Both the position numbers and the translations under genes were made by a program. Of a DNA stretch of 61,742 nucleotides, positions 1 to 61,742 are shown in pieces. The notes below the pieces were generated by a model. That model saw only the letters and a program-made list of their open reading frames with translations. It searched no databases and was not told the DNA's origin. This DNA comes from a virus: the IMG/VR virus record IMGVR_UViG_3300037465_000034; one strand, 5' to 3'. Within the stretch, counting starts at the first letter, position 1; every line of letters starts with the position of its first letter.

Positions 1-127
1 GCGGTTCGAATCAGTTGGTCTGTGTCCACGCCGCCTTTTACCATGCGAGCTCGATCCCCTTGAGTGCCGCGCTAAACGTCACGGCGCGCTCGTCAGTGCG
101 AGGCGCTCCCCAATGTGCGCGCGCCTG
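1..127. repeat. 127-bp terminal direct repeat, identical to 61616..61742 (closed-circle overlap or terminal redundancy)
   Basis: Read directly: bases 1-127 (gcggttcgaatcagttggtc ... gtgcgcgcgcctg) match 61616-61742 letter for letter. Confidence 0.9.
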
Positions 128-700
128 CGCCAGCGTGACAGGACCACGGCAACCGGCGTAGTAGTGCCCGCTTGGTGATTGCAGCAGCGCCCACTCACTG
201 CGGGCGAGTTCCGTCCATCCGTCCGCGGTGGCCTGCGCCGAGTCGCGCACGTCGAGCTGCCCCTCGTCGCGCACGTCGAGCCGCGCCGAGTCGAGCGTGA
301 TGATCTGCGCCGAGTCGCGCACTTTGAGCCGGGCCGAGTCGTGCACGCTGAGTAGCGCCGAGTCGCGCACTTTGAGCAGCGCCGAGTCGCGCACAATGAG
401 CCAGGCCGAGTCGTGCACAGTGAGTAGCGCCGAGTCGTGCACGCTGAGTAGCGCCGAGTCGCGCACACTGAGCTGCCCAGACACAATGAGCTGCGCCGAG
501 TCGCGCACTTTGATCCAAGCCGAGTCGTGCACAGTGAGTCGCGCCGAGTCGCGCACTTTGAGCAGCGCCGATTCGAGCACGTTGAGAGTGCCTACCAGCC
601 GCACGGCGCCGGTGATAGTGTGGACGCCCTCAGTGAGCGTCTGCTCGCCGCGTATTTCTCGAGTCCCGTCGGCAGCGATGGTGTATTGGATGGTGGTCAT
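38..700 (-). CDS. Octapeptide-repeat protein, cassette copy 1 (220 aa)
   Basis: ORF track, starts MTTIQYTIAADG. Residues 39-156 are 15 tandem units of consensus L-x-V-[RH]-D-S-A-x. C-terminal domain ADGWTELARSEWALLQSPSGHYYAGCRGPVTLAQARAHWGAPRTDERAVTF is shared with the paralog at 60521..61240. No family recognised. Confidence 0.75.
   Translation of the reverse strand: MTTIQYTIAADGTREIRGEQTLTEGVHTITGAVRLVGTLNVLESALLKVRDSARLTVHDSAWIKVRDSAQLIVSGQLSVRDSALLSVHDSALLTVHDSAWLIVRDSALLKVRDSALLSVHDSARLKVRDSAQIITLDSARLDVRDEGQLDVRDSAQATADGWTELARSEWALLQSPSGHYYAGCRGPVTLAQARAHWGAPRTDERAVTFSAALKGIELAW
233..586 (-). repeat. 24-bp tandem coding repeat array (15 units) inside 38..700
   Basis: Plus strand reads gccgagtcgcgcacNNtgagNNgc over and over. 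It corresponds to the 8-residue protein repeat. One unit is shortened to 6 codons. Confidence 0.85.
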
Positions 701-724
701 TTCGATTGCCGTCCCGTGGACCGG

Positions 725-1225
725 TCAAAACGAGCCGGTCGGTTGGTAAAATCTGCGCTCGTTGTCGTTTGCGACCTCGCGGACAACCGCGCCGGTGTAG
801 CGCGAGCGCGGGTGCCACGACTCGTAGGTGGTGGATAGCCTGCGCGCCAAGGGCTCGGCGAACTCGCGCGAGCGGTAAATGTGCGCCCGCCACTGAGCGC
901 GCGTCCACCGGGCGCCGCTCCAATACCGCTGGCCGCGCTGGATCACGTATCCGACCCAACTCGCGGCCTCCGTTATCGCGTAGCACACGAGCAGAAGGTC
1001 CAGCCCAACCTGTTGCAGCGTCGCCGTGTTGACGAGTTTGCCGCCGGAAAAATACTCGATCACGTCGCCACGCCGACGGATTTGGCACGATTGGCCCGGT
1101 GCCCAAAACACCACTGGGTCCGGCAGTCCGTTGCGGATCGTGTCTGCGAGCACCGCTCGGTTGTAGGACACTCCGATACGGGCCGCCTCGTTTTCCGCTT
1201 CTGTGATCAGTTGGTTCGTATCCAC
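725..1225 (-). CDS. Hypothetical protein, cassette partner copy 1 (166 aa)
   Basis: ORF track. N-terminal third (..AVLADTIRNGLPDPVVF..) and last residues TGSF are paralogous to 61360..61659. Lies directly upstream of 38..700 on the same strand. Confidence 0.6.
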   Translation of the reverse strand: MDTNQLITEAENEAARIGVSYNRAVLADTIRNGLPDPVVFWAPGQSCQIRRRGDVIEYFSGGKLVNTATLQQVGLDLLLVCYAITEAASWVGYVIQRGQRYWSGARWTRAQWRAHIYRSREFAEPLARRLSTTYESWHPRSRYTGAVVREVANDNERRFYQPTGSF

Positions 1226-1337: not shown

Positions 1338-1367
1338 TCGTAGGCGAGTTGCTCGTAGGCGAGTTGC
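1338..1367. repeat. 15-bp direct tandem repeat x2 (tcgtaggcgagttgc)
   Basis: Read directly at 1338-1352 and 1353-1367. Abuts a 17-nt relic of the cassette junction at 1323-1339. Confidence 0.8.
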
Positions 1368-1462
1368 ACGGCGCGAGTCTTCCAGGCATGATGCGCGCCG
1401 TGGGGGTTCGCTCGCCCTAAACGGGCGAAGGGGTCCGACTGCTGGGGTGCGGGAAACGAAAA

Positions 1463-1484
1463 GGCCGGGGAAACCCGGCCTTTT
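1463..1484. terminator. Bidirectional intrinsic terminator-like hairpin
   Basis: ggccggg-gaaa-cccggcc with an A-run before and tttt after. Sits immediately 3' of the minus-strand gene 1490..1726. Confidence 0.6.
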
Positions 1485-1489
1485 CGCTT

Positions 1490-1726
1490 CTAGGCGCGGC
1501 GCGGCAGGAGCCGGCCGCAGGTAGGACAGGTCTTGCGGTTGAGCCGCGCGGAGTGCGCGCGGTAGACGACGCTGTAGGACAGGCCGAAGAGCTTGGCGGC
1601 GGCGTAGAGGGATCGCCCCGAGCGCGCGTCGAGCCAACAATAAGTGACGACGCGGTTAGGGGTAAGGCGCCGACAACCTGCCAGATTGGGCGCTCTCCCT
1701 CGCCGGCCGGGGCGAGATCCGGCCAC
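1490..1726 (-). CDS. Small DNA-binding-like protein (HTH-like segment plus C-terminal CPTCG)
   Basis: ORF track. Contains ..SLYAAAKLFGLSYSVVYRAHSARLNRKTCPTCGRLL. Ends at the hairpin above. True start uncertain. Confidence 0.5.
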   Translation of the reverse strand: MAGSRPGRRGRAPNLAGCRRLTPNRVVTYCWLDARSGRSLYAAAKLFGLSYSVVYRAHSARLNRKTCPTCGRLLPRRA

Positions 1727-1883
1727 CTACAAGCGCGGGGTAGCTCAGTGGTTCGAGTCGTGCCCCCGCTACCAGTTCTGCCCGACGGATGCTGTCAGGA
1801 CTCCTCCTTGGCCTGGCAGATCCCGAAAGGGAGCCGTTGGCGCGGTCGCAGTCGGGCAGATTCATTTATCGATAGGGGCCAAT

Positions 1884-4231: not shown

Positions 4232-4897
4232 ATGACGATTACTACCAACGGGCGGAAAAAAAGTTCGGCCGCCAAGCCGCGCGTGAAGGCCGGCACCAGC
4301 AAGGCAATGGCAGCCCAGCGCAGGGCCCTGTTTACAGAGGCATACCTCACCAACGGCGGCAACGCCACCAATGCCGCGATCGCCGCCGGCTACAGCCCCA
4401 ATGGCGCAGATGTCGTTGGGACTCGGCTACTAGGGGATGTTAGCGTTGCGACAGCCATCGCCGCGCGCCGCGCCGAGGCGCTTGCTGCGGCGCAGCAGAA
4501 CACAGGCGTGACGATCGAGCGGACGCTGCGCGAGCTGGCGCGGCTGGCATATGTCGACCCGCGCCGAATGTTCGACAGCGACGGCAAGATGCTCCAGATC
4601 CATCAGTTGCCAGATGACGTCGCCCCGGCGGTAGCGCAATTCGAACGTGTCGTCGAATACAAGGGCAATGGCGAGGATCGCGTCGAGGCCGGGTACACGA
4701 CAAAGGTCAAATTGTGGGACAAGGTGTCCGCGATCGAGAAGGCAATGAAGCACCTGGGCCTGTTCGAGAAGGACAATGCACAGCGACCACAGACCGCTCC
4801 GGCGGTGTTCGTTGTGATGGGGGTTGAGCCGATGGGGGTTGAGCCAACGGTGGTTGGTGGCGGCTCGGCGGCGCCTGACAAGCCGATGATCCGATGA
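4232..4897 (+). CDS. terS: Terminase small subunit (P27/Terminase_2-like)
   Basis: ..FTEAYLTNGGNATNAAIAAGYSPNGADVVGTRLL...WDKVSAIEKAMKHLGLF. Lies immediately upstream of TerL. Confidence 0.8.
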   Translation: MTITTNGRKKSSAAKPRVKAGTSKAMAAQRRALFTEAYLTNGGNATNAAIAAGYSPNGADVVGTRLLGDVSVATAIAARRAEALAAAQQNTGVTIERTLRELARLAYVDPRRMFDSDGKMLQIHQLPDDVAPAVAQFERVVEYKGNGEDRVEAGYTTKVKLWDKVSAIEKAMKHLGLFEKDNAQRPQTAPAVFVVMGVEPMGVEPTVVGGGSAAPDKPMIR

Positions 4898-40000: not shown

Positions 40001-43000
40001 GACACGGTGCAGCTCGTCGATCCACAGCCATTCCCTGGCGCGGTGCGCGGCGGGCAGGCCTACCAGCACTCGATCTACCGCGACGGCAGGCCGGTGGGCG
40101 TTGTGTCGCTGGTGTGGGAGCAGGGGCGCGTCAAGTCGCTCTTGCACATCCTCACCTACGACGAGGAGCAGGGCCGCGGGGTGGCGGAAGCGGTGGTGCG
40201 TGGCATCCTCATGCACAACCGCGGCGGGCTGCACATCATGTCGATTCAGGACACGGCGCGCGGCTTTTGGGAGAAAATGGGGACTGAGTATCTGGAGACC
40301 GAGGGGACAGAACCCGATGGCTACATCACACCGGAGAGTTACCGTGCAGCGCGGGGTGCTGAGGGAGATCAGGAGGCGCGACGCAGAGCGCGCGAAGCGG
40401 GAACGCGCCCAGCCGCCGTCGGAGAAGGCGCGCCTCGACCTGGCGACGCTCGATTCTCTCCGGCAGACGAAGCACTAGATGTAGACCGCGCGCTCAACGA
40501 CATCCGCCGTGCCGGCACCACAAGATATGACGAGCAGGCACAAAGCGACCTCGCCGTCCTTGAGCGCGAGCTGGGGCCGTTCAGTTCGACGGGTCGGGTT
40601 CCTCGCGGTCTTTACAGACCTGTTCGCCTGCCTGACGATTCATACCTTCAGGAGCTCGCCGGGACCTTCGGAAGGCGAGTCCTCGGGATCAGCTTCGACG
40701 AATCCAGAGCACCACCGAATTCCCCGCTTCTGACGGATTGGCAGGGCGTCAGCGTCGGCGCCGATTCCGGCATCATCGGCATCCGCTACGGCGCGAGGCG
40801 CCCGTCGATCGCGCTCACCATGCACGAACTGTCGCATGAGATTGAGCGCGAGGATCCCGAGACGTTCAACGAGCTGGTCGAGGCGCTGCGGCCATATATC
40901 CGCCAGGAGGAATACGGCCGGCGCTTTGCTGCCGTATATCGCGGGATGCCGGATGCCCGCATTCGCGGCGAATTTGTCGCGGAGGTGATGAGCGACGGCG
41001 CGATGTATCCCAAGTTTTGGGATTACGTCGGCCAATACAGCCCGGAGCTTCTGAGAAAGCTGGTCGGCGCCGTGCGCCGGCTGCTCGATCGCGTGGCGCG
41101 CGGGCTGGGCATGGGCTACAAGTGGAAGACCGCGCAATACGTCACCGACTTCGACGCCGTGATGAACGAGGCGGCGCGCGCCCTCGCCAAGTATCACGAC
41201 AAGCGCGCTCTCGCCGATATGCAGCGCGCCGAAGAGCGGCGGCATCCTGCCTTCCAGCGCGACGACCTGCCTGCGATGGACCTGGACGCGGACCGCCCGT
41301 TCCAGACCGTGGACAGAATCGAGGACATCGAGTGGAAGGAGATGATGGATTACTTCTCGGCGAACGTGAACGAGCGCCGGGTGCTGATCTACAAGCCGAT
41401 GCTGCCCGAGGATCTGACGTTATCGAAGGCGCACCGTGGTGGCGGAAGAACATGGTGGCACGCCGTCGTGGCGGGCAGCAGCAAGCACCTGAGAAACGGC
41501 GGCAAGGCTGACAGCTTCGAGGATGCCGCGCGCATCGCCTGGGAAGCATTGACACTGCTACCGCCGGTTACTGACACGGTAGAGACCCGCTCTGCGATGT
41601 ATAGCAAGCGCATGGTGGCGAAAATGGGTGGGCGCCGTGGCAAGCAATACGGCTATTACCACCGCAACACCGGCCGCGAGTCCGAATACATCGAGGGCGA
41701 AGAGCTGGTCGATGGCGTGGAGCCTAGCGAAGGCGACATCGAGCGCGGGCCAGACTTCTCGCGCGAAGGCACGGCAGCGCCAGTCTTCTACTACGCGCTG
41801 GACCGCCAGCTCGTCGCCTCTCCCATGAAGGCCGGCCCGGCGAAAGCCTGGCGCGACTACATCAAGGGATTGGTAGCGAAGGGTCTTGTCAAGCAGGACG
41901 AGGTTAATTGGAGCGGCATCGACGACCTGCTGCAAATCGACACCGAAGGGCATCGCATCCAGCGCGAAGAGCTGCTGTTCTACCTGCGCCAGATGAACAA
42001 GGAGATCGGGGATGTCGTCGCCGGCGAAGCCATTGACGCAGAATTCGAGGGTGGTGGTGCGCCAAGCGCCGCCCACAGGGCCAGCAATAAGGTGAATGAG
42101 CTGCGAGTTCAGCTCGATGCGCTGGGCTATGACGTAGAGTTCGAGGCGAACGGCCCGGACGCCGGGATGCCGCTTTATGTGCTCCGGCGCTCGGATAGGT
42201 CGGCGTTCTCGTTCGGTGACAGGTTCGCGCTCGGAGACGCGCTGCACGTTGATGAGCTGCCAGACGGCCCGCGTGAACTCGCCGAAGATATTTATCAGGA
42301 GGCGCAAAAAGCCTTGGAGGACGAGGACGGAATCGTCGCCCAACACCAGCAATCGTTGCAACCAAGGTATGTGAAGACGCGCTACGAGACCTACGGCCTG
42401 CCGGGATCTGAGCCGGGCACCTACCGCGAGATCCTGATGACGCTGCCATCGTTCACGATGGAAGGCGTCGCTGGCCGCGTCGTGTTCGAGGGGCGCTGGC
42501 GGGAAGCTGTCGTCGATGAGTTCATGAGCGAGATCGCCGAAGAGCATCCAGAGGTGTATTTGGCGGCCATCGAGGAAGATGGCGTTCGGAACATCGTCGA
42601 GTTCAGTGGGGCAGGAGAAACAGCGCGCGACAGCATCGACAATTTCGCCAGGATGAATAGTGGCGATGTCACCTACACGAAGGGCGCTGGCCCGGTGCCG
42701 ATGTTCACTTCAGCCCACTGGCAGCAAGGCAACGTCGTGGCGCACATCCGCGCCGATGTCGTGAAGGCCGAGGATGGCAAGAGCTATCTGCGCGTGATCG
42801 AGATTCAGTCCGATTGGGCTCAGCGCGCGCGCAAAGTCAGAAAGCAAGAGGTCGTCCGCGTCGCCACTGAAAAAGGCATCAGCCGCGAGGAAGCCGACAA
42901 GCTGGTGGCGAGGGACTTCGGATTCTCCGAGCCCCGAGCGATCAGGGACGCTTCTGACAAGGTGATCGTCACCGAGCGCCACTACCGCGATCTCGTCAAG

Positions 43001-46000
43001 AAAATGCTCGCTCAGATCACCGAGCACGACTACTTCGGCTTCGAGGATGAACATGGGGCTTTGGAGGACATCACCTACAATCCGATCACCTGGGAGCAGA
43101 GTTGGCAGACTCAGCGTAAAGTCGTCCCCGCTGAGTTCCGTCGCCTCGCCAAGGAATATCTTGAAGCCTACGATGCGTGGCGGCGGGCGACGCGCGAACA
43201 GGTTGCGATCTCGCCGTATCCTAAGGCGCCGTTCGTGGACAAGACAGAGGCGTGGGTGTCGCTCGCGGTCAAGCGCGCGCTGCGCTACGCCGCCGACAAG
43301 GGGCTCGCAGGCGTGGTCTTCGCCAGCGGCAAGCAGAATCTTTCCCTCTACGAAGGCATCCGACGGCGGGTCAAGCGCATCGAGTGGCAGCCGGAGAAGA
43401 GGCAGCTCAACATCGTGTTCAAGCCAACCCGCGACGGGCATGGTCTGCAAAACGCGGAGCCCGACCGCCTGGTAGAAGCTGTCGGCCCCAAGGAGTTGCC
43501 GGAATACGTTGGCGAGAACATCGCCAAGCAACTGCTCGAGCCAACACCATCCGCAGGCACGGATGCCTTCAACGTGACCAAGAAGGATGGTTCGGTGTGG
43601 CGCGTTGTCGAGGGCGAGAAGCTTCGTGTCGGCGGCGAAGGGCTAGTAGCTTTCTACGACAAGCTGCTGCCAGCCGTCGCATCCGGCGTCGTGAGGAAAC
43701 TCGGCGGCAAGCTCTCCAAGGTGACGACGCAAAAGAAAGAAGGATCGCCGCTCGCCAAAAAAGAGATGACCGATACGGTGGTCGCCTATATGGCAGGGGA
43801 CATCAGCGCAGAGGAATTCATCGACAACACCGGCTTGAACATGACGGTGAGCGACGTCGAGGCGGACGAGGACATGAATGGAGCATGGGACAGGCACGAC
43901 GCGCGAACGAGGACAGTCGCCAAAACGATAGCCAATCGCCTCACGCGGCAACACGGCCCCGCGCGCTCAACGACTTACAACGCGGTCGAGCTCACGCCGG
44001 AGATGCGCGACAAGGCGCTGGGCGGCCTGCCGGCGTTCAGCCCATACTACACGCCAGATCTAAAGATGCGCCTGGCCAAGGGTAGAGAATCGCCAGATGA
44101 GTGGGTGAAAGGGTTGCAGAAAAAATACCCGGTGACCTGGCGCGAAGTCGGCGAGCGCGAGCTGAATTCACTTGAGCGCGAGATCGGGCTGCGCCCGATC
44201 CCGTCCGAGCATGAACCAGGCCACGGCCCTGCGCTCGAGGACAGGTATGCGTCGTTCAGGTGGGTGACGGATGCGCGCTACGCGCTACGAAACGCCGGGG
44301 AACCGGAGCCTCCGGCCGGCATCGAGCGGCCGTTGTTCAGCCGCGAGGAGCGCGAGCCGCGCGAGGCCGCGCCAGTGGCGGCTGGGATTCGCAAGAAGTT
44401 CGAGACGGCCGGAAATTTTGACAAGACGACCATCAGGCAATACGACGACTACGTTGCCGGTGCGCCAGAGCTGGCGTCGGCGCAAGCCGGGCCGATCACC
44501 GTTCGCGTGATGCGTGACACCAATGGCATCTGGTTCGGGCCAGGCTATTTCATACTCACGCACCGCGACTTTCCGCAATACCCGGTGCCGGCGCACAGGT
44601 GGATGGACGAGTGGGAACCCTATATGCAGTCCGTCGAGGGCGTCTCCCGGGCCGACTACGCGAAACTGCCGCAGGAGGAGCGCGCGGCGATCGAGGCCAG
44701 ACGCCAGGCGAGGACCTACGCAGAGAAGCAATTCTTCGGCGATCTGGCCGAGTTCTACTGGAACGACAGGTGGCAAAAGCGCCTCGACGAGAAGTTCAAG
44801 AAGCGCACACAAGGAGTCGCCGGCCACGATTGGGTCAAGGCCCGCAGCGCCGCCGAGAACGACTACTGGAAGGCGCTGGTCTACGACGAGCTGGGCCAGC
44901 GCGCGTTCACGCCGCACGACTACCCGCCGGCCGACAAGCCGAATCATCCAGTGCGGAAGATCGTCCACGGCATCAAGGACAACATGGAGTCCGCGATTCG
45001 CGAGGCTCGCGCCATGATCGCGGAGAAAGGCTGGAAGTCCGTCGCCGAGGCCTTCTCCTGGTTTAGCGATGATCGCTCTCACGGCGGCGAGGACGTAGCC
45101 GAGGCCGCGCGCGCTGTGGTCAAGCAGTTCGGCGGCACCGAAAGCACGGCGGACCCCTTCGATTTCGTGACGCGAGTCCTGACTGACGCTGAGGCCGAGC
45201 CTGTTCTGAGCGCCTACACCGAGGCCGAGCTGCGCGCCAAGGAGCGCCGCGAGAAGGAAGGCAAGCCGGTGCCGACGCCGACCACGGGACCGGAGCCGCC
45301 ACTGCTGACGACGCCAGAAGGCGTGGCGCCCGCGCGCTTTGGAGAGGTGCCGAAGAGCCCGACCGGTCAGGGCAGCCTGTTCAGCCGCGAGACGAGGCGC
45401 GCCCGGCGCCGTGGATCCGATGTGCGATTCAGCCCGATGGAGGCGATCGGTGCGAGCGGTGTGCGCGGCGACCACGAGGACGGCCTGGCGCGTCGCGGCA
45501 GCAATTTCGTGCGCGACCTGCTGCACAGCTCGGGCAAGTTGTCCTGGTGGTCCAGAACCGTCGGCACTCCGCAGCACGTTGCCGAGACGAACGCCGAGTT
45601 CCGGCCCGTGTTCGACGAGGGGCAAGCCTTCATTCACGACGTCAGCCGCTTCGCCAACGAGGCCGCTGACGCCGCGAACGGGGATCCGAACGACCCGAAC
45701 GCCATGCACATCCTCCCTCGCATCGAGCAGTTCATGGACTTCCTCAAGAAGCACGCCAGCAACGAGGACCAGGAGCGGGTCATGGGCGCGCTGATGACGG
45801 GAACGCTGTGGGGCGGCGGCGACCCGCTGCAGGGCCGTATCTGGACCGACGAGGAGCTGCGCGCCGGCAGGGAGGTCGATGGCGACATCCGCCTGCCGGC
45901 CTTCACGCCGATGACGGAGGCGCAGATCAAGCTCTACCGCCAGGCGCTCAACTCGACGCGCGTGAGCTTGGACAACACCGCGAAGTCGATGATCGCGCGC

Positions 46001-54010: not shown

Positions 54011-54814
54011 ATGTATAACAAGCTGTTCACGAAGATCTTGGACAGCACCGTGTGGCTCGAACCTGACGCGACCAGGCTTGTGTGGATCACGATGCTTGCG
54101 GCGATGGACGAGGACGGGTTCGTGGCGCTTTCGTCTGTGGGCAACGTCGCTGCGCGCGCCCGCGTGTCGCTGGAAGACGCTCAGAAGGCGGTGGCCGCGC
54201 TCGAGGCCGACGATCGCCACGACCCAGGCCAAGAGCATGGTGGTCGCAGAATAGAGCGGGTTCCGTATGGCTGGATGGTAGTAAATGCCAGCAAATACAG
54301 GGACATAGTTGCCAGAGAGACTGCTCGAGCGAGCAACAGGGAGAGGGTTCGAATGCACCGCGCACGTAATGCCTCTGTAACGCATGGTAATGCGGTGTCA
54401 CCAAATGTAACGCATGGTAATGCGGTGTCACCAAATGTAACTCATGGTAATGCGGTGTCACCAAATGTAACGCAATCAGAAGCAGTATCAGAGGCATTAT
54501 ATAAACCCATTGTCGGGCTGAAGCCCGACGACGCGAGGTCTTTGAAGGCAGGGCGCGTAAGGCATGCCATCGAGATCCTCGCGTTCCTGAACGAGAAAGC
54601 CGGCAAGCACTTCCAGCCGGTCAAGCAGAACGTCGATCTGATCGTAGGACTACTGGCAAGCGGATCCACGCCGGAGGACATTCGCGCGGTCGTTGCGAAG
54701 AAGGTGCGCGAATGGAAGGGTTCTCCAGACATGGAGCGATACCTGCGCCCGGCAACGCTGTTCGGCCCGAAGAATTTCCACAGCAAGTATAGAGGGGAGA
54801 TCCCGCCAGAATGA
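54011..54814 (+). CDS. Replication initiator (lambda O-like: N-terminal wHTH plus phage conserved C-terminal domain) with internal iterons
   Basis: MYNKLFTKILDSTVWLEPDATRLVWITMLAAMDEDGFV.. C-terminal part ILAFLNEKAGKHFQPVKQNVDLIVGLLASG.TPEDIRAVVAKKVREWKG...YLRPATLFGPKNF. Linker VTHGNAVSPN x3 is encoded by the iterons. Confidence 0.75.
   Translation: MYNKLFTKILDSTVWLEPDATRLVWITMLAAMDEDGFVALSSVGNVAARARVSLEDAQKAVAALEADDRHDPGQEHGGRRIERVPYGWMVVNASKYRDIVARETARASNRERVRMHRARNASVTHGNAVSPNVTHGNAVSPNVTHGNAVSPNVTQSEAVSEALYKPIVGLKPDDARSLKAGRVRHAIEILAFLNEKAGKHFQPVKQNVDLIVGLLASGSTPEDIRAVVAKKVREWKGSPDMERYLRPATLFGPKNFHSKYRGEIPPE
54376..54474 (+). repeat. Iteron array: 30-bp unit gtaacgcatggtaatgcggtgtcaccaaat x3 plus a partial fourth; probable replication origin
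   Basis: Units at 54376-54405, 54406-54435 and 54436-54465 (one mismatch), with a partial unit at 54466-54474. Followed by the AT-rich cattatataaaccca at 54495-54509. Locally low G+C. Confidence 0.75.
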
Positions 54815-56228: not shown

Positions 56229-57098
56229 TTGTTAACGCGCGATCCGTTCCGTATCGCAGGCCCGGCGGTCATCTCCGTCAGTGGCGGACGCACCAGCGGC
56301 TATATGCTCTGGCGCATCCTGCAATCCCACGGCGGACAGTTGCCAGATGATGTGCGAGCGATGTTCGCCAACACGGGCAAGGAGATGCCCGAGACTCTTG
56401 ACTTCGTGCGCGACATGGGCGAGCGGTGGGGAGTGCCGATCACTTGGGTTGAGTATCGCCCAAAGACAGATGCCGGCAAGCAACACGCCATCGTTGATTG
56501 GCACAACGCGAGCAGACTCTGGGAACCATACGCCGCGCTGATCGCAGACAGGAAATACCTGCCGAATCCAGTTGCCAGATTTTGCACGATTGAACTCAAA
56601 ATCAGGCCGATGCACCGAGTTGTGCGTAAGTGGGGATGGGAGGAATGGACTAGCTGCATCGGAATACGCGCCGACGAACCTCGCAGGGTAGCCAAGTTGG
56701 CGGCTCGATCAGGCGCTGAAACTGCGTATGAAACTGCCATTGCACCACTCGCGCAAGCAGGCATCGCGGTGAAGGACGTGTCCGAGTTTTGGCGACAACA
56801 GCCGTTCGACTTGCGACTACCGAATATGGGCGACAGGACAATGCACGGTAACTGTGACTTGTGCTTCCTCAAAGGCGCAGACCAAATTTATTCCTTAATC
56901 CGAGAACAACCCAAGCGTGCCATCTGGTGGATGGAGCAGGAGGCAAAGATTTACAGTAGCGGCCAATTCAGGGGCGATGGTGCTAGATTCAGGTCAGACC
57001 GCCCATCTTACAAACAAATGTATGAGTCCGCGATTAGCCAAAAGGAGTTGTTCGAGTTTGGGGACGAACCACTTCAGGATTGCTTCTGTGTTGATTGA
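56229..57098 (+). CDS. PAPS-reductase-family (PP-loop ATP pyrophosphatase) protein
   Basis: PP-loop VISVSGGRTSGYM. ..NTGKEMPETLDFV.. C-terminal Cys pair HGNCDLCFLKG. Only a TTG start is available in frame. Confidence 0.8.
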   Translation: MLTRDPFRIAGPAVISVSGGRTSGYMLWRILQSHGGQLPDDVRAMFANTGKEMPETLDFVRDMGERWGVPITWVEYRPKTDAGKQHAIVDWHNASRLWEPYAALIADRKYLPNPVARFCTIELKIRPMHRVVRKWGWEEWTSCIGIRADEPRRVAKLAARSGAETAYETAIAPLAQAGIAVKDVSEFWRQQPFDLRLPNMGDRTMHGNCDLCFLKGADQIYSLIREQPKRAIWWMEQEAKIYSSGQFRGDGARFRSDRPSYKQMYESAISQKELFEFGDEPLQDCFCVD

Positions 57099-57126
57099 CA
57101 GGGGTCGTGGACATGATGGTGCGACT

Positions 57127-57816
57127 GTGAAAGTTGCCGTGCTCTACGAGCGCAGCGGGATCGTGCGCGACGCCTTCGCTGCCCTGGGGCATGACGCCGC
57201 CAGTGTTGACCTGGAACCAAGCGAGCGTAGCGGGCCGCATTTCGTGGAGGACGCCCTTCACTGGCTGTCACGCAACCACGTCGATCTCGCCATTGCGCAT
57301 CCGCCATGCACATACCTCTCGGTCAGCGGGCTGCACTGGAACCACCGGCGGCCGGAGAGGGCCGCCCTGACCGAGGTAGCTGTGAGGCACTTTCTCGATC
57401 TGATCGGGCTGCTGAATGAATCCGCAGGAACTTGGGCGATCGAGAATCCAGTGGGCTGCATGAGTAAATTGTGGCGCAAGCCCAATCAAATTATTCAGCC
57501 GCACCAATTTGGCCATGACGCGAGCAAGGCGACGTGCCTGTGGCTGAAAAATCTGCCGCTGCTGCGCCCAACCAAGCAAATTCCACCAATTTTCGGGTGT
57601 GAATGTGGCACGCGGTTTCCATTGGAGCTGGGCAAACATGGTTGTCCCAACTGTCGCGGCGACGGCCGTGTGCGACGGATTTGGGGAAACCAGACCCCGA
57701 CGGGTCAGAACAGGCTCGGCCCAAGCGCGAAGCGGGCGATGGACAGGGCGCGCACCTATCCCGGCATAGCAGAGGCTATGGCATTTCAATGGGGGCGGCT
57801 GATAAGCGCGCCGTGA
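57127..57816 (+). CDS. DNA C5-cytosine methyltransferase-like protein (compact, with a zinc-ribbon insert)
   Basis: VAVLYERSGIVRDAF (motif I-like), AHPPCTYLSVSG (motif IV PC), WAIENPVG (motif VI ENV-like). Insert CECGTRFPLELGKHGCPNC. Start uncertain (GTG 57127, GTG 57088 or TTG 57091). Confidence 0.65.
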   Translation: MKVAVLYERSGIVRDAFAALGHDAASVDLEPSERSGPHFVEDALHWLSRNHVDLAIAHPPCTYLSVSGLHWNHRRPERAALTEVAVRHFLDLIGLLNESAGTWAIENPVGCMSKLWRKPNQIIQPHQFGHDASKATCLWLKNLPLLRPTKQIPPIFGCECGTRFPLELGKHGCPNCRGDGRVRRIWGNQTPTGQNRLGPSAKRAMDRARTYPGIAEAMAFQWGRLISAP

Positions 57817-57845
57817 CGTTTCGCGCGGCACCCAAATAAACAACC

Positions 57846-58046
57846 ATGACGAAGCCGCTCGAATGTCACAGATGGCCGCGCAGGCGTAGATACGGATGTG
57901 TTCGTGTTGCCTCATGGCTGATTGGCACGGAGAAAGTGCCATACTGCCAAGTGTGCGCGGAGCGATACCCCAGAAAAATCGCAGGGCGCACAGTCCAGCG
58001 CATTCCAATTCGGCGAGTGCAGGATGAAACTGAAGTTCTACGTTGA
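57846..58046 (+). CDS. Small Cys-containing protein
   Basis: ORF track. ..VPYCQVCAERY.. Confidence 0.4.
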   Translation: MTKPLECHRWPRRRRYGCVRVASWLIGTEKVPYCQVCAERYPRKIAGRTVQRIPIRRVQDETEVLR

Positions 58047-58224
58047 CATCTATCCAGGGCTCGACTATCACCGAGCCGTGCTCTACGCGACGACCCAGCC
58101 CTGCCAGAAAGGCGGCGGCGTCAGGCGCTTCGCGTTCGAGGTCGAGCTTGACGACACCATCATCAACGATGTCGATGTCGAGGTGTCGCCGGCGAAGGTA
58201 GGGGCTCCGCTGTTGCAGCCGTGA
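58024..58224 (+). CDS. Hypothetical small protein
   Basis: ATG at 58024 (MKLKFYVDIYPGLDYHRAVLY...). In-frame part of ORF 57922..58224. Confidence 0.45.
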   Translation: MKLKFYVDIYPGLDYHRAVLYATTQPCQKGGGVRRFAFEVELDDTIINDVDVEVSPAKVGAPLLQP

Positions 58225-58237
58225 CGATCAGGATCGC

Positions 58238-58708
58238 GTGAGCCGCATCACGGTTAGGAAGGGCGAGGACGGCAAGCTCTGCGGGTTCAGCCAGGCCGAC
58301 AAGCGCGCCTACGCGCGCTTCCGCAAGGCACTCGACGAGCTGGAGATCGGAGATTTGCTGACATTCTCGACCTGGTTCCCGAGGAACCCTGCCTTCCACA
58401 AGATGCACTTCTCGATGATTGGCGGCCTCTTTGACGCGCAGGAGCAATTCGCCGATCCAGACGACCTCCGCCGCTGGCTATACGTCGGTGCGGGTTACTG
58501 CGAGATCGTGCCTGGCCCAAGGGGTCGCATGGTGGCGCTGCCGAAGTCGGTGGCCTACGATAAGCTGGACGATGCCGAGTTCAGCGAGCTGCACCGCAAG
58601 GTGATCGAGTTCCTGCGGAGCGAACACGCGCAAGCCTTCCTCTGGCCGCACCTGAGGCCGGCCCAGCGCGCCGACGCGATCGAGACGATGCTGACGGGGT
58701 ATGAATGA
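58238..58708 (+). CDS. DUF1367-like phage protein
   Basis: ..FHKMHFSMIGGLFDAQEQFADPDDLRRWLYVGAGYCE...PKSVAYDKLDDAEFSELHRKVIEFL.. Family is from memory. Confidence 0.55.
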   Translation: MSRITVRKGEDGKLCGFSQADKRAYARFRKALDELEIGDLLTFSTWFPRNPAFHKMHFSMIGGLFDAQEQFADPDDLRRWLYVGAGYCEIVPGPRGRMVALPKSVAYDKLDDAEFSELHRKVIEFLRSEHAQAFLWPHLRPAQRADAIETMLTGYE

Positions 58709-58784
58709 CGCAGGGCGATTGGCAGCAGATGGCCGGCGGATCTTGAGGCGCGATAATCGTGCTCCTCGGATCGCCGCTGAAACA

Positions 58785-59711
58785 ATGAGGGCATTCTACA
58801 ATGAGATCGACGACCACTCTTGCGGCTGGCTCTCGAACCTCATGGACGCCGGGCTCATCACGCCTGGCAAGATAGATGACCGCGACATTCGACTTGTTCG
58901 GCCAGAAGACCTCAGAGGCTACGAGCGCGCCCATTTCTTCGCCGGCATCGGCACCTGGGACTACGCCCTCAACCTCGCCGGCTGGCGCGGGCCAGTCTGG
59001 ACAGGGAGTTGTCCCTGCCAGCCATTCAGCAACGCCGGGCGCCGTGGCGCTTTCGGTGATGAGCGCCATCTCTGGCCGCACTGGCTCGGGATCATCCGCG
59101 AGCAAAGACCTGACGTTATCTTTGGCGAGCAGGTATCGAGCGCGCACGGCCTGGCTTGGATCGACTTTGTTTGCGCTGACCTGGAAGCAGAGGCTTACGC
59201 CGTCGCGGCGCTCGATACCAGCGCAGCGGGCGTCGGCGCACCGCACATCCGCAACCGGCTTTACTTCGTCGCCGACGCCATGCGCCACAGCAGCGCAGAC
59301 TGCTACTTGGCCGACCACCACGGCGAAGGACGGCAACTCGAGCGCGCGGCACGGCTACATGGTGACGGGCAGGGGCGGCAAGACGCTGCTGGATGCGGCG
59401 AGGCTATGCGCGTGGGCCACGCCACTAAACAAGACCAGCCCCCATGCACACTGCGATCTGGCGAGGGAGGCTCCGCTTGCGGCGGCTTCTGGCGCAACGC
59501 CCGCCCCATCTTCTGCAAGGACGGGTTCGTCAGGTTCGCTGAACCCGGCATTTTCCCTATGGTTGATGGCGCTGCCTTCCGAGTGGGTAGTGGCAGCACC
59601 TTGGAAGGCAAGGCGCGCACGAAAATGCTTCAGGCCGCAGGAAATGCCATCGTTGCCACGCAAGCCGCTGAGTTCATAGCGGCATTCATGGAGTGCGATG
59701 AAGTGCGATGA
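58785..59711 (+). CDS. DNA C5-cytosine methyltransferase (central region appears frame-scrambled)
   Basis: Motif I HFFAGIG, motif IV GSCPCQPFS, motif VI FGEQV, motif VIII RNRLYFVA, motif X GNAIV. Alternative ATG at 58701. See the finding for 59280..59485. Confidence 0.8.
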   Translation: MRAFYNEIDDHSCGWLSNLMDAGLITPGKIDDRDIRLVRPEDLRGYERAHFFAGIGTWDYALNLAGWRGPVWTGSCPCQPFSNAGRRGAFGDERHLWPHWLGIIREQRPDVIFGEQVSSAHGLAWIDFVCADLEAEAYAVAALDTSAAGVGAPHIRNRLYFVADAMRHSSADCYLADHHGEGRQLERAARLHGDGQGRQDAAGCGEAMRVGHATKQDQPPCTLRSGEGGSACGGFWRNARPIFCKDGFVRFAEPGIFPMVDGAAFRVGSGSTLEGKARTKMLQAAGNAIVATQAAEFIAAFMECDEVR

Positions 59712-60042: not shown

Positions 60043-60552
60043 GTGGATCCAACAACAAAAAGGGCTGCAGTCGCCAAGCTGCTTGCCAAGCTCGGAGTCA
60101 GGGAACGCCTCAAGCAGCTCGCACAGGCATATCACGCGCACCAGCTCAGTGCCGATGAGCTAGAACTCGCTCGGGTGCGCGACTACCTGGATGCATGGGT
60201 GCGGCACCAGGAGAAATACCGTCCGCGGCTGGGTCTGCCATCGTCGTCAGCCTTCGCCCCCGCGCTGAGCAACGCGCGCACCGCGAGCGAATACCATGAG
60301 CGGTCTGACGCATGGATGCTGCAGCAGGTCGATGCCGCGGTCGAGGAGGATCTGCCTATCCTCGAGCCGGACGGGCGAGCGATGTGGCTCGCGCTGCGGA
60401 TGCGCTGGCTCAACGTCAAAGTGGGGCCGCGCGTGTTCCGCTCCGGCCGGCTGCGGCACCTGGACCCAGCCGAGGTCGATGATCTGGCAGACGCGGCCGA
60501 ACGCGCCCTGATACCCATGTTCAAGCGGCGGAAGCTGCCCCTGTTGCCTTGA
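60043..60552 (+). CDS. Hypothetical protein in the lambda Q position (possible late-gene regulator)
   Basis: Last gene of the rightward early operon. Function inferred from position only. Confidence 0.4.
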   Translation: MDPTTKRAAVAKLLAKLGVRERLKQLAQAYHAHQLSADELELARVRDYLDAWVRHQEKYRPRLGLPSSSAFAPALSNARTASEYHERSDAWMLQQVDAAVEEDLPILEPDGRAMWLALRMRWLNVKVGPRVFRSGRLRHLDPAEVDDLADAAERALIPMFKRRKLPLLP

Positions 60553-61240
60553 GTGCCGCGCGAAACGTCACGGCGCGCTCGTCAGTGCGAGGCGCTCCCC
60601 AATGTGCGCGCGCCTGTTCGAGTGTGAAATGGCCACGGCAACCGGCATAATAGTATCCATCGGGTGATCGTAGCAGCGCCCACTCATTGCGGGCGAGTTC
60701 GGTCCAGCCATCTGCGATGAGCTGCCCCTCGTCGCGCACGTCGAGCTGCCCCGAGTCGCAGATGTTGAGCTGCGCCGAGCCGCGCACGTTGAGCCGCGCC
60801 GAGCCGCGCACTTTGAGCCGGGCCGAGTCGTGCACGTTGAGCTGCGCCGAGTCGTGCGCGCTGAGTAGCGCCGAGTCGCGCACAATGAGCCACGCCGAGT
60901 CGCGCACGTTGAGTCGCGCCGAGTCGAGCACAATGAGCCGGGCCGAGTCGCTCATGTTGAGCCGCGCCCAGCCGTGCACACTGAGCCGCGCCCAGCCGTG
61001 CACACTGAGCCGGGCCGGGCCGAGCACGCTGAGTATCGCCGATTCGAGCACAATGAGCTGCCCCGATTCGATCACGCTGAGCTGCGCCGAGTCGAGCACA
61101 ATGAGCCGGGCCGATTCGCGCACGTTGAGAGTGCCTACCAGCCCCACGGCGTTCGTGATGAAATGGACGCCCTCGGTGAGCGTCTGCTTGCCGCGTATTT
61201 CGCGTGCTCCGTCGGCAGCGATGGTGTATTGGATGGTCAT
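60521..61240 (-). CDS. Octapeptide-repeat protein, cassette copy 2 (239 aa)
   Basis: ATG at 61240 (MTIQYTIAADG). 17 tandem 8-residue units at residues 38-173. Same C-terminal domain as copy 1. The 3' end overlaps the convergent gene 60043..60552 by 32 nt. Confidence 0.75.
   Translation of the reverse strand: MTIQYTIAADGAREIRGKQTLTEGVHFITNAVGLVGTLNVRESARLIVLDSAQLSVIESGQLIVLESAILSVLGPARLSVHGWARLSVHGWARLNMSDSARLIVLDSARLNVRDSAWLIVRDSALLSAHDSAQLNVHDSARLKVRGSARLNVRGSAQLNICDSGQLDVRDEGQLIADGWTELARNEWALLRSPDGYYYAGCRGHFTLEQARAHWGAPRTDERAVTFRAALKATGAASAA
60722..61129 (-). repeat. 24-bp tandem coding repeat array (17 units) inside 60521..61240
   Basis: Same gccgagtc[gc]NgcacNNtgagNNgc-type unit as at 233..586. 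Confidence 0.85.
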
Positions 61241-61359
61241 GCCGATCCCCCTGTTTCCCCTGTTGCATCGCACCTGAACTCGTAGACAGGCACGACGATG
61301 TTGCGCTCACCGACTGTCACGCGCCGACACAGCGGGCTGTTTGCCGGCCCGTGGACCGG

Positions 61360-61659
61360 TCAAAACGAGCCGGTCCCCAGATACGCTCGCGATATCGCGT
61401 AGTTGACGAGCAGGCGATCTGCACCGACCTGCAAGAGTGTGGCCTGACGGACGATCTTGCCGTCGCGCACAAATGCGATGAGTTCTCCGGTTTTGCGCAC
61501 GACACCCAATCCCTCGGGCGAATCAAAAACCACGTTATCCGGCAACCCGCCGCGGATCGTGTCTGCGAGCACCGCAGTATTGATCCCTATGCCCGCCTTG
61601 AGTGCCTGCGCCTGTGCGGTTCGAATCAGTTGGTCTGTGTCCACGCCGCCTTTTACCAT
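61360..61659 (-). CDS. Hypothetical protein, cassette partner copy 2 (99 aa)
   Basis: ORF track. Its start lies inside the 127-bp terminal repeat (equivalent to position 44) and overlaps the stop of 38..700. Paralog of 725..1225. Confidence 0.6.
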   Translation of the reverse strand: MVKGGVDTDQLIRTAQAQALKAGIGINTAVLADTIRGGLPDNVVFDSPEGLGVVRKTGELIAFVRDGKIVRQATLLQVGADRLLVNYAISRAYLGTGSF

Positions 61660-61742
61660 GCGAGCTCGATCCCCTTGAGTGCCGCGCTAAACGTCACGGC
61701 GCGCTCGTCAGTGCGAGGCGCTCCCCAATGTGCGCGCGCCTG
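61616..61742. repeat. 127-bp terminal direct repeat, identical to 1..127
   Basis: Read directly. Confidence 0.9.

What the first reader, a model, noticed from the sequence alone, without database searches (positions are those of the whole stretch)
60521..61742. Tandemly duplicated two-gene module in the Q-to-lysis 'moron' slot, homogenised in patches
On the minus strand the circular order is: partner-1 (1225-725), repeat-protein-1 (700-38), partner-2 (61659-61360), repeat-protein-2 (61240-60521). The module lies between the last early-right gene (in the lambda Q position) and the lysis genes, transcribed against both. That is the slot where lambdoid phages carry cargo such as toxin or exclusion genes.

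The two copies are mosaic. A 70-nt stretch encoding the end of the C-terminal domain (58-127 versus 60547-60616) differs at a single base. A 28-nt block at the partner-gene stop is identical. The neighbouring sequence has diverged. This pattern indicates ongoing gene conversion or recombination between copies. The module has its own upstream small HTH gene (1490..1726) and a terminator. I cannot assign its function. A two-component accessory system, such as exclusion, anti-defence or host manipulation, is the working hypothesis.
Basis: partly seen in the sequence, partly recalled or inferred. Interest (0 to 1): 0.7.

Follow-up and report, generated by a model that had tools for sequence, protein, structure and literature searches.

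The report
Duplicated phage operon, uncatalogued repeat proteins
A phage genome carries two tandem copies of a small two-gene cassette whose larger protein belongs to a widespread but undescribed family of phage proteins (a variable repeat rod plus a conserved 55-residue tail domain), and its function is still unknown.

Summary
The contig ends overlap by exactly 127 nt, giving a 61,615-bp circular unit. Across the join, the minus strand reads partner-1, rep-1, partner-2, rep-2 as one tightly coupled operon. It sits between a nin-like early region and the lysis genes, antisense to both.

The two copies diverged unevenly:
- Partner genes are near saturation (dS about 1.5).
- The rep gene ends are much closer (dS 0.3-0.9).
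- One 70-nt block is 69/70 identical and a 28-nt block is exact.
- That 70-nt block is also nearly identical in a rep gene on an unrelated, low-GC phage contig. Exchange therefore happens between phages, not only between the two copies.

Each rep protein has a cap, 15-17 copies of an 8-residue repeat (confidently predicted beta-solenoid) and a C-terminal domain of about 55 residues. That domain defines at least 129 protein clusters. All 13 that carried source labels are metagenomic and unnamed, and every context examined is phage-like. It is absent from Pfam, PHROGs and NCBIfam and has no PDB fold match. It sits behind at least eight unrelated repeat types, or almost alone.

The partner proteins are orphans found nowhere else, so a general two-component system is not supported. 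Function is inferred only: probably a host- or phage-conflict accessory protein whose tail domain is the working part.

The parts
725..1225 (-). partner-1: 166-aa orphan protein, GTG start with an AGGAG Shine-Dalgarno 8 nt upstream
   Evidence: ORF. GC by codon position is 0.63/0.51/0.78. It matches only itself in the protein database (P0002). No Pfam, PHROG, NCBIfam, PADLOC or PDB hit.
38..700 (-). rep-1: 220 aa, made of a 40-residue cap, about 15 units of [D/G]SAxLxVx, and the C-terminal domain
   Evidence: AF2 predicts a beta-solenoid with pLDDT above 90 for residues 10-120.
61360..61659 (-). partner-2: 99 aa, sharing the 87-residue N-domain and the C-terminal TGSF with partner-1. Its ATG overlaps the rep-1 stop (ATGGTAA).
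   Evidence: For the N-domains, dS is 1.49 and omega 0.32.
60521..61240 (-). rep-2: 239 aa, made of a cap, about 17 repeat units and the C-terminal domain. Its 3' end overlaps the convergent 169-aa gene by 32 nt.
235..586 (-). 24-nt tandem repeat array of rep-1 (8-residue units)
   Evidence: TRF reports period 24 and 14.9 copies.
60718..61129 (-). 24-nt tandem repeat array of rep-2
   Evidence: TRF reports period 24 and 17.2 copies, plus a 72-nt super-period.
38..220 (-). Coding region of the conserved C-terminal domain of rep-1 (residues 161-220)
   Evidence: HMM match E = 3e-25. AF2 with 70 sequences gives pLDDT 93 and four strands followed by two helices.
60521..60709 (-). Coding region of the conserved C-terminal domain of rep-2 (residues 178-239)
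   Evidence: HMM match E = 1.6e-25.
58..127 (-). Homogenised block, 69/70 identical to 60547-60616 and also near-identical in L002
60547..60616 (-). Second copy of the homogenised block
713..740 (-). 28-nt exact block covering the last four partner codons (TGSF), the stop and 13 nt downstream. It is identical to 61348-61375.
   Evidence: The two copies do not share a predicted RNA structure.
61348..61375 (-). Second copy of the 28-nt block
61241..61359 (-). 119-nt spacer between partner-2 and rep-2 (copy 1 has only 24 nt here)
61616..61742 (.). Assembly overlap, identical to 1-127. It closes the circle inside the rep-1/partner-2 junction.
1453..1490 (.). Bidirectional terminator-like hairpin (17-nt arms, T-runs on both sides). 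It insulates the module from the lysis side.
1338..1367 (.). Two exact 15-nt direct repeats in the putative promoter region upstream of partner-1
1490..1726 (-). Unverified.
   Evidence: HTH_23 E = 0.041, below the Pfam cut-off. No phage homologue. GC2 is 0.67, which is atypical.
60043..60552 (+). 169-aa orphan gene in the 'Q position', convergent with rep-2
   Evidence: No hit in any library.

Best explanation
**Shown**
- The locus is one minus-strand operon, partner-1 > rep-1 > partner-2 > rep-2. It arose by tandem duplication of a two-gene cassette in the accessory slot between the nin-like early genes and the lysis cassette of a lambdoid-layout phage.
- Each rep protein has no hydrophobic N-terminus when read by eye, so it is probably cytoplasmic (not tested with a predictor). 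It consists of a beta-solenoid rod built from 15-17 eight-residue units, followed by a conserved alpha/beta domain of about 55 residues.
- That domain has near-invariant residues: A-G-C-(R) at a hairpin, H-W at the end of helix 1, and R-x-D-x-R-A leading into helix 2.
- The domain defines a large, unnamed family. All contexts I examined are phage or prophage. It is always the C-terminal element and is preceded by many unrelated repeat types, or by almost nothing.
- The family evolves by gain and loss of repeat units and by patchwise recombination, both between the two copies and between phages.

**Inferred**
- The C-terminal domain is the functional core, because it alone is conserved and can make up nearly the whole protein.
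- It most likely binds a conserved cellular or phage target. The solenoid would be an exchangeable, fast-evolving surface or spacer, because the variable residues sit at repeat positions 4, 6 and 8, alternating with the conserved Ala, Leu and Val that would fill a solenoid core.
- Its placement among early, recombination and lysis-adjacent accessory genes makes a role in phage-host or phage-phage conflict the most likely one (host takeover, anti-defence or exclusion).
- The two copies would then provide two specificities.
- The lineage-specific partner would be a cofactor, chaperone or regulator of its cognate rep protein. It is translationally coupled to it and duplicated with it.
For: - **Anatomy and coupling:**
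- **Purifying selection on both gene types:** omega 0.14-0.33.
- **Solenoid:** AF2 pLDDT above 90. Units are listed.
- **C-domain family:** 129 cluster representatives at E below 1e-3 among 1.84 billion. The domain ends a median of 1 residue from the C terminus.
- **N-terminal diversity:** RHS/YD, DUF4116, LRR, pentapeptide, LRV/HEAT and MORN repeats. At least 15 different repeat periods occur, and 16 of 128 members have fewer than 30 residues before the domain.
- **Domain fold:** pLDDT 93 and pTM 0.79. There is no PDB match, best E = 2. The best BFVD matches are phage 'pentapeptide repeat' proteins.
- **Not catalogued:** no Pfam, PHROG or NCBIfam model.
- **Contexts:** Cro/CI and integrase regions, YqaJ/RecT/ERF/SSB genes, C5 methylase, lysozyme and spanin genes.
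- **Paralogue pairs elsewhere:** L010 and L027.
- **Repeat-number change:** P0003 and P0004 have identical flanks but 2 versus 8 units.
- **Exchange between phages:** the L002 gene has 57% GC, with 31-38% GC on both sides. It is 87% identical to rep-1 over 166 nt, and 94% identical over 67 nt that include part of the homogenised block.
Against: - No experiment or annotated homologue bears on function.
- No hit in PADLOC, and no anti-defence library was available.
- The partner is unique to this contig, so its role is guesswork.
- No sigma-70-like promoter was found upstream of partner-1.
- The module's GC content (66%) equals that of the genome, so it is not a compositional island here.
- The solenoid could be a passive spacer rather than a binding surface.
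- I had no model coordinates, so I could not test whether the invariant Cys, His, Arg and Asp residues cluster.
Confidence: 0.45

Rival explanations
1. The module is a toxin-antitoxin-like or abortive-infection/exclusion pair. The small upstream partner neutralises the downstream rep protein, and the prophage expresses the pair to exclude other phages.
For: The gene order is small gene first, then a tightly coupled larger gene, and the pair duplicated as a unit. The unit is insulated and antisense, with a terminator hairpin, which is typical of morons expressed from prophages.
Against: There is no partner homologue next to any of at least 14 other family members. No PADLOC, Pfam or NCBIfam toxin or antitoxin hit was found. 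The partner has no recognisable DNA-binding domain. No integrase was identified in the genes I scanned, so lysogeny is unproven.
Confidence: 0.15
2. The protein is a timing or regulatory factor of the lysis or late programme. The C-domain would bind DNA or RNA, or a lysis or late protein, and the gene's antisense position would let late transcription and module transcription interfere with each other.
For: Three contexts are adjacent to lysis genes: the window, L004 after a protein that by eye resembles a spanin C-terminus and before one that by eye resembles a SleB-type hydrolase (neither was scanned), and L010 beside a lysozyme cassette. The tail of the domain has a strand-helix-helix order.
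Against: Most other contexts are early or recombination regions. Foldseek found no ribbon-helix-helix or other DNA-binding fold. Nothing links the domain to nucleic acid.
Confidence: 0.1
3. The protein is a virion structural part. The 8-residue repeats would form a trimeric intertwined beta-helix like the T4 gp5 or P2 gpV spike, and the C-domain would be a tip whose Cys and His residues bind a metal on the three-fold axis.
For: The 8-residue period matches gp5C. P0001 has weak hits to Gp5_trimer_C (E 0.085) and to a beta-helical trimerisation domain (E 0.024). One family member hits PHROG 430, a baseplate hub (4e-5).
Against: The genes lie outside the structural module and on the opposite strand. 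There is no N-terminal OB or hub domain. Relatives carry LRR, MORN, HEAT and DUF4116 repeats, which are monomeric solenoids. Relatives also sit in early operons. The AF2 monomer model is already confident.
Confidence: 0.05
4. The tandem arrangement is an assembly artefact. Two strain variants of a single cassette would have been stitched together through the shared block when the contig was circularised.
For: The contig break lies inside the module, and the edge of the 127-nt overlap coincides exactly with the edge of the homogenised block.
Against: The 127-mer itself spans the specific rep-1 tail and the start of partner-2, so that junction exists in the reads' k-mers. The flanks of the two copies are not homologous, as strain variants would require. 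The exact shared run is only 54 nt, far below k = 127. Partner dS of about 1.5 is not strain-level variation.
Confidence: 0.05
5. The module is functionally neutral, selfish or decaying repeat DNA that happens to stay open in frame.
For: All six frames are open across the repeats, and repeat number changes freely.
Against: Omega is 0.14-0.33 in non-repeat parts. The C-domain is conserved across at least 129 clusters with near-invariant residues. The conserved positions within the repeat alternate in the way a beta-solenoid core requires.
Confidence: 0.05

Closest known systems
Phage 'pentapeptide repeat' proteins of uncultured Caudovirales (BFVD A0A6J5P4I3, A0A6J5NJK4, A0A6J7X720), EBPR siphovirus 2 gp1 and the L010 141-aa protein
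   Same: The C-terminal alpha/beta domain is homologous (Foldseek probability 0.91-0.97 and 26-31% identity for the three best BFVD matches, falling to 0.51 and 20% for A0A6J7X720). The AGCR core motif is shared. The architecture is a solenoid followed by the domain, and the genes are phage accessory genes.
   Different: Those proteins have 5-residue repeats matching PF00805 and a more divergent form of the domain (RAGCRY..T..[EY]..H). The window proteins have 8-residue repeats and no Pfam match. None of these proteins has a known function either.
Lambdoid 'morons' (self-contained accessory transcription units such as lambda bor/lom or stx between Q and the lysis genes; from my own knowledge of Hendrix and colleagues' definition)
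   Same: The slot lies between the nin-like early region and the lysis cassette. The unit is insulated by a strong hairpin and its orientation is independent of its neighbours. The gene is horizontally mobile between phages.
   Different: No promoter was identified. In this genome the module shows no compositional contrast (66% versus 64.6% GC). Expression in lysogens and lysogeny itself are unproven. The neighbour in the Q position is an orphan.
T4 gp5 C-terminal beta-helix and related spike needles (8-residue VxGxxxxx repeats)
   Same: The period is 8 residues, with alternating small and hydrophobic inward-facing positions. There are weak profile hits.
   Different: The motif differs ([D/G]SAxLxVx). 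There is no hub or lysozyme domain, the genes are outside the structural module, and a monomeric solenoid is predicted.
Modular adaptor proteins with a constant small domain and exchangeable repeats (F-box proteins; ankyrin-PRANC proteins of poxviruses). This is an analogy from my own knowledge.
   Same: One small conserved domain at a fixed terminus is combined with many unrelated repeat scaffolds.
   Different: There is no sequence or fold similarity. No ubiquitin-like machinery exists in bacteria, and the adaptor role is purely hypothetical.
Type II toxin-antitoxin operons
   Same: Two small genes are translationally coupled and duplicated together.
   Different: No family hit was found. 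The partner is absent from every other locus that holds a family member.

Membership tests
Solenoid + 'AGCR-HW' C-terminal domain family (uncatalogued; defined here) | Significant match to the C-domain profile | tested here: met
   rep-1 E = 3e-25 and rep-2 E = 1.6e-25 against the 70-sequence profile. The profile was seeded with these proteins, but independent members score equally well: L004 9e-26 and L009 1e-25.
Solenoid + 'AGCR-HW' C-terminal domain family (uncatalogued; defined here) | The domain lies at the extreme C terminus and carries the near-invariant residues L, A-G-C, H-W, R, D, R-A, F, A | tested here: met
   All near-invariant columns are present in both window proteins. The domain ends a median of 1 residue from the C terminus.
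Solenoid + 'AGCR-HW' C-terminal domain family (uncatalogued; defined here) | Phage or prophage genomic context | tested here: met
   The window holds terminase, spanins and NinB. Other loci hold Cro/CI, integrase, RecT/ERF, YqaJ, SSB and lysozyme genes.
Pentapeptide repeat family (PF00805) | Tandem 5-residue A(D/N)LXX repeats matching the Pfam model | tested here: not met
   The period is 8 residues. No Pfam hit at E up to 0.1.
gp5-type trimeric beta-helix spike | 8-residue repeats matching Gp5_trimer_C above the cut-off | tested here: not met
   Only P0001 gives E = 0.085, at 13.5 bits against a cut-off of 30.9. The window proteins give no hit.
gp5-type trimeric beta-helix spike | N-terminal hub/OB domain and a location in the baseplate or tail module | tested here: not met
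   The cap is 40 residues with no domain hit. The genes are antisense and lie between the early and lysis regions.
gp5-type trimeric beta-helix spike | Homotrimeric intertwined helix | not testable with these tools
   Only monomer prediction was available.
Lambdoid moron | Own terminator or insulation from the flanking operons | tested here: met
   A 17-nt-arm hairpin with T-runs on both strands lies at 1453-1490. There is no terminator after rep-2.
Lambdoid moron | Own promoter | tested here: inconclusive
   No sigma-70-like match on the minus strand in 1226-1452. A 15-nt x2 direct repeat is present.
Lambdoid moron | Base composition differs from the host phage genome | tested here: not met
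   The module has 66% GC against 64.6% for the window. The feature is met in L002, where the gene has 57% GC in a backbone of 31-38%.
Lambdoid moron | Expressed from the prophage | not testable with these tools
   This needs transcriptomics.
Type II toxin-antitoxin | Recognisable toxin and antitoxin families, and conserved co-occurrence of the pair | tested here: not met
   No hits. A partner-like gene is absent from all other loci.
Lambda Q-type antiterminator (the 169-aa neighbour) | Similarity to a Q family | tested here: not met
   No Pfam, PHROG, NCBIfam, PDB or GenBank-phage hit.
Diversity-generating retroelement target | Nearby reverse transcriptase and template repeat | not tested
   No reverse transcriptase appeared among the genes I scanned. 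I did not run a dedicated search.

The most novel reading that the evidence does not exclude
The C-terminal domain is a new, phage-specific effector or docking module, and these proteins form a previously unrecognised class of modular phage factors. A constant 'warhead' would engage one conserved cellular machine, for example a protease, a nucleoid protein or a defence hub. Freely exchangeable solenoids of any repeat type would supply rapidly evolving target specificity or reach. This would be a prokaryotic-virus counterpart of F-box or PRANC-type adaptors. In this phage the pair would be kept diversified by duplication plus recombination, with a private partner protein for each copy.
Probability: 0.2. 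Interest if true: 0.85.

Novelty: new variant of a known kind. Interest (0 to 1): 0.6.

Why it matters
Small accessory genes in the early and lysis-adjacent slots of phages are where many anti-defence and host-takeover functions have been found, and most such genes remain unannotated.

This locus points to a domain of about 55 residues with four notable properties:
- It has a confident fold prediction with no match among solved structures.
- It is missing from Pfam, PHROGs and NCBIfam.
- It recurs in at least 129 sequence clusters. All 13 that carried source labels are metagenomic and unnamed, and every context examined is phage-like.
- It is fused to at least eight unrelated repeat scaffolds.

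That gives a concrete, testable handle: one small domain with a few invariant residues. It also gives a natural example of how tandem repeats, duplication and recombination between phages diversify a protein family.

If the function turns out to be mundane, the result still supplies a new family definition for phage annotation.

Tried and rejected
**Searches that found nothing**
- Pfam, PHROGs, NCBIfam and PADLOC on all four module proteins, the 78-aa ORF and the 169-aa neighbour gave nothing above cut-off. The one exception is PHROG 15773 (unknown function), which matches the repeats only.
- PDB sequence searches for the C-domain profile, partner-1 and the 169-aa protein gave nothing meaningful.
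- Foldseek of the full rep-1 model returned only generic beta-helices at E of 0.2 or worse. Foldseek of the C-domain against the PDB gave a best E of 2.
- GenBank phages: megablast with the first 25 kb of the window (1-25000) found no match. The repeat region hits only Mycobacterium phage Squirty gp51. A consensus C-domain found no hit in phages or plasmids.
- The genome-contig scan gave one false positive in a Clostridia MAG, which I rejected on reading the ORFs.
- The first degenerate DNA pattern found nothing in IMG/VR, and the window contig itself is not found there.
- The search for related loci could not use the 70-sequence alignment.
- Literature searches (pentapeptide repeat plus anti-defence, DUF4116 plus phage, motif strings) found no description of this domain.

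**RNA-level explanations for the conserved blocks, rejected**
- The 70-nt block folds no better than shuffled sequence (z = +1.6).
- The 28-nt block has no shared structure in the two copies.
- Rfam and ARAGORN found nothing in the window or in the upstream region.

**Other rejected readings**
- Opposite-strand and other reading frames across the repeats, because homologues share the non-repeat termini.
- A chimeric origin for L002. It is disfavoured because low-GC sequence flanks the GC-rich island on both sides, although the left flank is only 48 nt.

**Could not do**
Full report
**1. The observation**

The window has 64.6% GC, and its first and last 127 nt are identical. That is the signature of a circular path cut by a k = 127 assembler, so the real unit is 61,615 bp. 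Across the join, the minus strand reads:
- partner-1 (1225-725, 166 aa)
- rep-1 (700-38, 220 aa)
- partner-2 (61659-61360, 99 aa)
- rep-2 (61240-60521, 239 aa)

Partner-1 stops 24 nt before rep-1. The rep-1 stop overlaps the partner-2 start (ATGGTAA). A 119-nt spacer precedes rep-2. This is one coupled operon.

58-127 versus 60547-60616 is 69/70 identical, with a 54-nt exact run. 713-740 equals 61348-61375. rep-1 and rep-2 are 66% identical. The partners share an 87-residue N-domain (52% identical) and the last four residues, TGSF.

**2. Is the patchiness real?**

Yes. Nei-Gojobori estimates are:

| Region compared | dS | omega |
|---|---|---|
| Partner N-domains | 1.49 | 0.32 |
| rep caps | 0.28 | 0.33 |
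| rep C-domain, first 31 codons | 0.87 | 0.14 |
| rep C-domain, next 23 codons | 0 (no synonymous change) | not defined |

Column shuffling gives P = 0.002 for the 54-nt run within the C-domain. No shuffle in 20,000 reached it across all non-repeat module columns. So both gene types are under purifying selection, and the rep genes are far less diverged than the partners that duplicated with them. Parts of the rep genes have therefore been replaced since the duplication.

A third gene changes the reading. L002 is an IMG/VR contig whose backbone has 31-38% GC, while its rep gene has 57% GC. That gene carries nearly the same block, and 87% identity to rep-1 over 166 nt at the 5' end. In places it sides with rep-1 and in others with rep-2. 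Low-GC sequence lies on both sides of the GC-rich island in L002, so the island looks acquired rather than chimeric.

The mosaic therefore reflects recombination within a pool of related genes carried by different phages. Conversion between the two resident copies is only part of it. RNA-structure explanations for the blocks failed.

One oddity remains. The block ends exactly at position 127, where the assembly overlap ends. A branch in the assembly graph at that point would fit recombinant variants in the sample, but I cannot test that without reads.

**3. What the proteins are**

Each rep protein has three parts: a 40-residue cap, then 15 (rep-1) or 17 (rep-2) units of [D/G]-S-A-x-L-x-V-x, then a tail of about 55 residues.
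- AF2 predicts the repeats as a regular beta-solenoid, with pLDDT above 90.
- The conserved Ala, Leu and Val alternate as a solenoid core would. The variable positions 4, 6 and 8 fall between them, which in a beta-strand places them on the opposite, outward face. I had no model coordinates to confirm this.
- Foldseek finds only generic beta-helices.
- None of the four proteins matches Pfam, PHROGs (apart from a repeat-only family of unknown function), NCBIfam or PADLOC.

The tail is the informative part. A three-sequence profile of it, searched with HMMER against 1.84 billion cluster representatives, found 129 proteins at E below 1e-3.
- In nearly all of them the domain is at the very C terminus of a small protein of 62-286 aa.
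- What precedes it varies widely: the same 8-residue solenoid, other 8-residue repeats, 17-21-residue LRR-like repeats, classical LRR, YD/RHS, DUF4116, MORN, LRV/HEAT and pentapeptide repeats.
- In 16 of 128 members fewer than 30 residues precede it.
- P0003 and P0004 have identical flanks and differ only in having 2 versus 8 repeat units.
- Near-invariant residues are L, A-G-C, H-W, R, D, R-A, F and A.

With a 70-sequence alignment, AF2 gives pLDDT 93 and pTM 0.79 for a fold of four strands and two helices.
- Nothing in the PDB resembles it; the best Foldseek E is 2 and the sequence profile finds nothing.
- In BFVD the best matches are 'pentapeptide repeat' proteins of uncultured phages (probability 0.97). 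These are further family members with a more divergent domain, like the 141-aa protein in L010.
- All database members that carried source labels are metagenomic and unnamed.
- A consensus domain finds nothing in 50,697 GenBank phage records or in PLSDB plasmids.
- The divergent form hits only two environmental phage records.

The partners match nothing except partner-1's own database entry. No partner-like ORF occurs in any of the other loci.

**4. Context**

In the window the module is flanked as follows:
- **Early side:** PAPS-reductase-like gene, a DNA methylase, NinB, a C5 methylase, a RecA-dependent nuclease and an orphan 169-aa gene.
- **Late side:** a DUF5675 protein (proposed to be a C82-peptidase-like lysin in bioRxiv 10.64898/2026.04.11.717860), Rz/Rz1 spanins, TerS and TerL.

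However, the 'Q' identity of the 169-aa gene and the 'HTH' identity of ORF 1490-1726 are unsupported. A 17-nt-arm bidirectional hairpin (1453-1490) and a 15-nt x2 direct repeat (1338-1367) lie upstream of partner-1. I found no consensus promoter.

Elsewhere, family members sit in several kinds of region:
- next to Cro/CI and integrase (L005-L007)
- next to YqaJ, RecT/ERF and SSB genes (L028, L033, L039)
- near a C5 methylase (L016)
- beside a lysozyme cassette (L010)
- after a spanin-like gene, judged by eye (L004)

Two loci (L010, L027) hold two family members with different repeat types close together. Paralogue pairs therefore recur, but the interleaved partner gene does not.

**5. Mechanism**

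Shown:
- the operon anatomy
- the solenoid-plus-domain architecture
- purifying selection
- repeat-number change
- patchwise recombination, including between phages
- family breadth and phage association

Inferred: the conserved tail is the working part and the solenoid is an exchangeable surface or spacer. The likely arena is phage-host or phage-phage conflict, judged from gene position, small size, rapid diversification and horizontal mobility. The partner is probably a private cofactor or regulator.

I put 0.45 on this package. Most of the uncertainty lies in the functional half. The rivals are scored in the report sections:
- a toxin-antitoxin or exclusion pair
- a lysis or late-timing factor
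- a spike-like structural protein
- an assembly artefact
- neutral repeat DNA

**6. Comparison with known systems and novelty**

The locus behaves like a moron in position and insulation, but it fails or cannot be tested on promoter, composition and expression. The repeat resembles the gp5 needle only in its period. It is not a pentapeptide-repeat protein, although some relatives are. No toxin-antitoxin, defence or regulator family fits.

The kind of thing, an accessory cassette of small repeat proteins in a phage, is familiar. The defining domain, its predicted fold and its range of fusion partners are not described in any library or paper I could search. I therefore file it as a new variant of a known kind. 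I give a 0.2 chance that it represents a new class of modular phage factor.

Noticed in passing
window 31019-48322 (+): There is a single 5,767-aa ORF (17.3 kb, 28% of the genome) at the end of the structural region. Its first half carries an ART-PolyVal ADP-ribosyltransferase domain (E = 2e-10) and a weak GP88 match. This looks like a giant 'polyvalent' protein, and I suspect it is injected with the DNA.
   Followed up: partly
window 54376-54474: A 30-nt unit (TGTAACGCATGGTAATGCGGTGTCACCAAA) is repeated 3.3 times at 97% identity. It lies between the Cro-like gene and the early-right genes. It may be an iteron or operator array.
   Followed up: no
L002 1-1300 (IMGVR_UViG_3300043177_000144): A GC-rich island (55-64% GC) holds a rep-family gene and a RyR-domain gene. 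Sequence of 31-38% GC flanks it on both sides. The rep gene is 87% identical to window rep-1 over 166 nt, and 94% identical over 67 nt within the C-domain coding region. This suggests recent transfer between phages of very different base composition.
   Followed up: partly
L010 1771-2913; L027 2855-4708: Two family members with different repeat types lie side by side or close together. L010 has YD-type plus pentapeptide. L027 has LRR-type plus a GNAxVY repeat (6 residues by eye). In each pair the second carries a divergent form of the C-domain.
   Followed up: partly
P0003 and P0004 (metagenomic proteins): The two proteins have identical flanking sequence but 2 versus 8 copies of the 8-residue unit. 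This is a direct example of repeat-number change in the family.
   Followed up: no
window 127/128 and 61742: The edge of the assembler's 127-nt terminal overlap coincides exactly with the edge of the 54-nt exact block shared by rep-1 and rep-2. A branch in the assembly graph, meaning recombinant variants in the sample, would explain this.
   Followed up: no
window 1733-1775 (+): GCGGGGTAGCTCAGTGGTTCGAGTCGTGCCCCCGCTACCA looks like a tRNA acceptor stem and D-arm joined directly to a 3' acceptor strand and ACCA. ARAGORN and Rfam do not call it. It may be a tRNA remnant or an att-like site.
   Followed up: partly
window 56229-59711 (+): There is a dense set of DNA-modification genes: a PAPS-reductase-like gene (56229-57098), a DNA methyltransferase (56917-57816) and a C5 cytosine methyltransferase (58701-59711). 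NinB lies between the two methyltransferases and a RecA-dependent nuclease follows them.
   Followed up: partly
window about 1884-2345 (+): The first lysis-side gene is a DUF5675 protein (E = 9e-26). The long ORF from 1644 probably starts near 1884. A 2026 preprint groups DUF5675 with C82-type peptidase lysins. It is probably the endolysin, placed ahead of the embedded Rz/Rz1 pair.
   Followed up: partly
window 4894-6267 (+): The closest TerL relatives in GenBank are only 44-45% identical (Bacillus phage Dartukuta; Pseudomonas phages H66 and LKA5). The first 25 kb of the window has no nucleotide match in GenBank phages. The phage lineage itself is undescribed.
   Followed up: no
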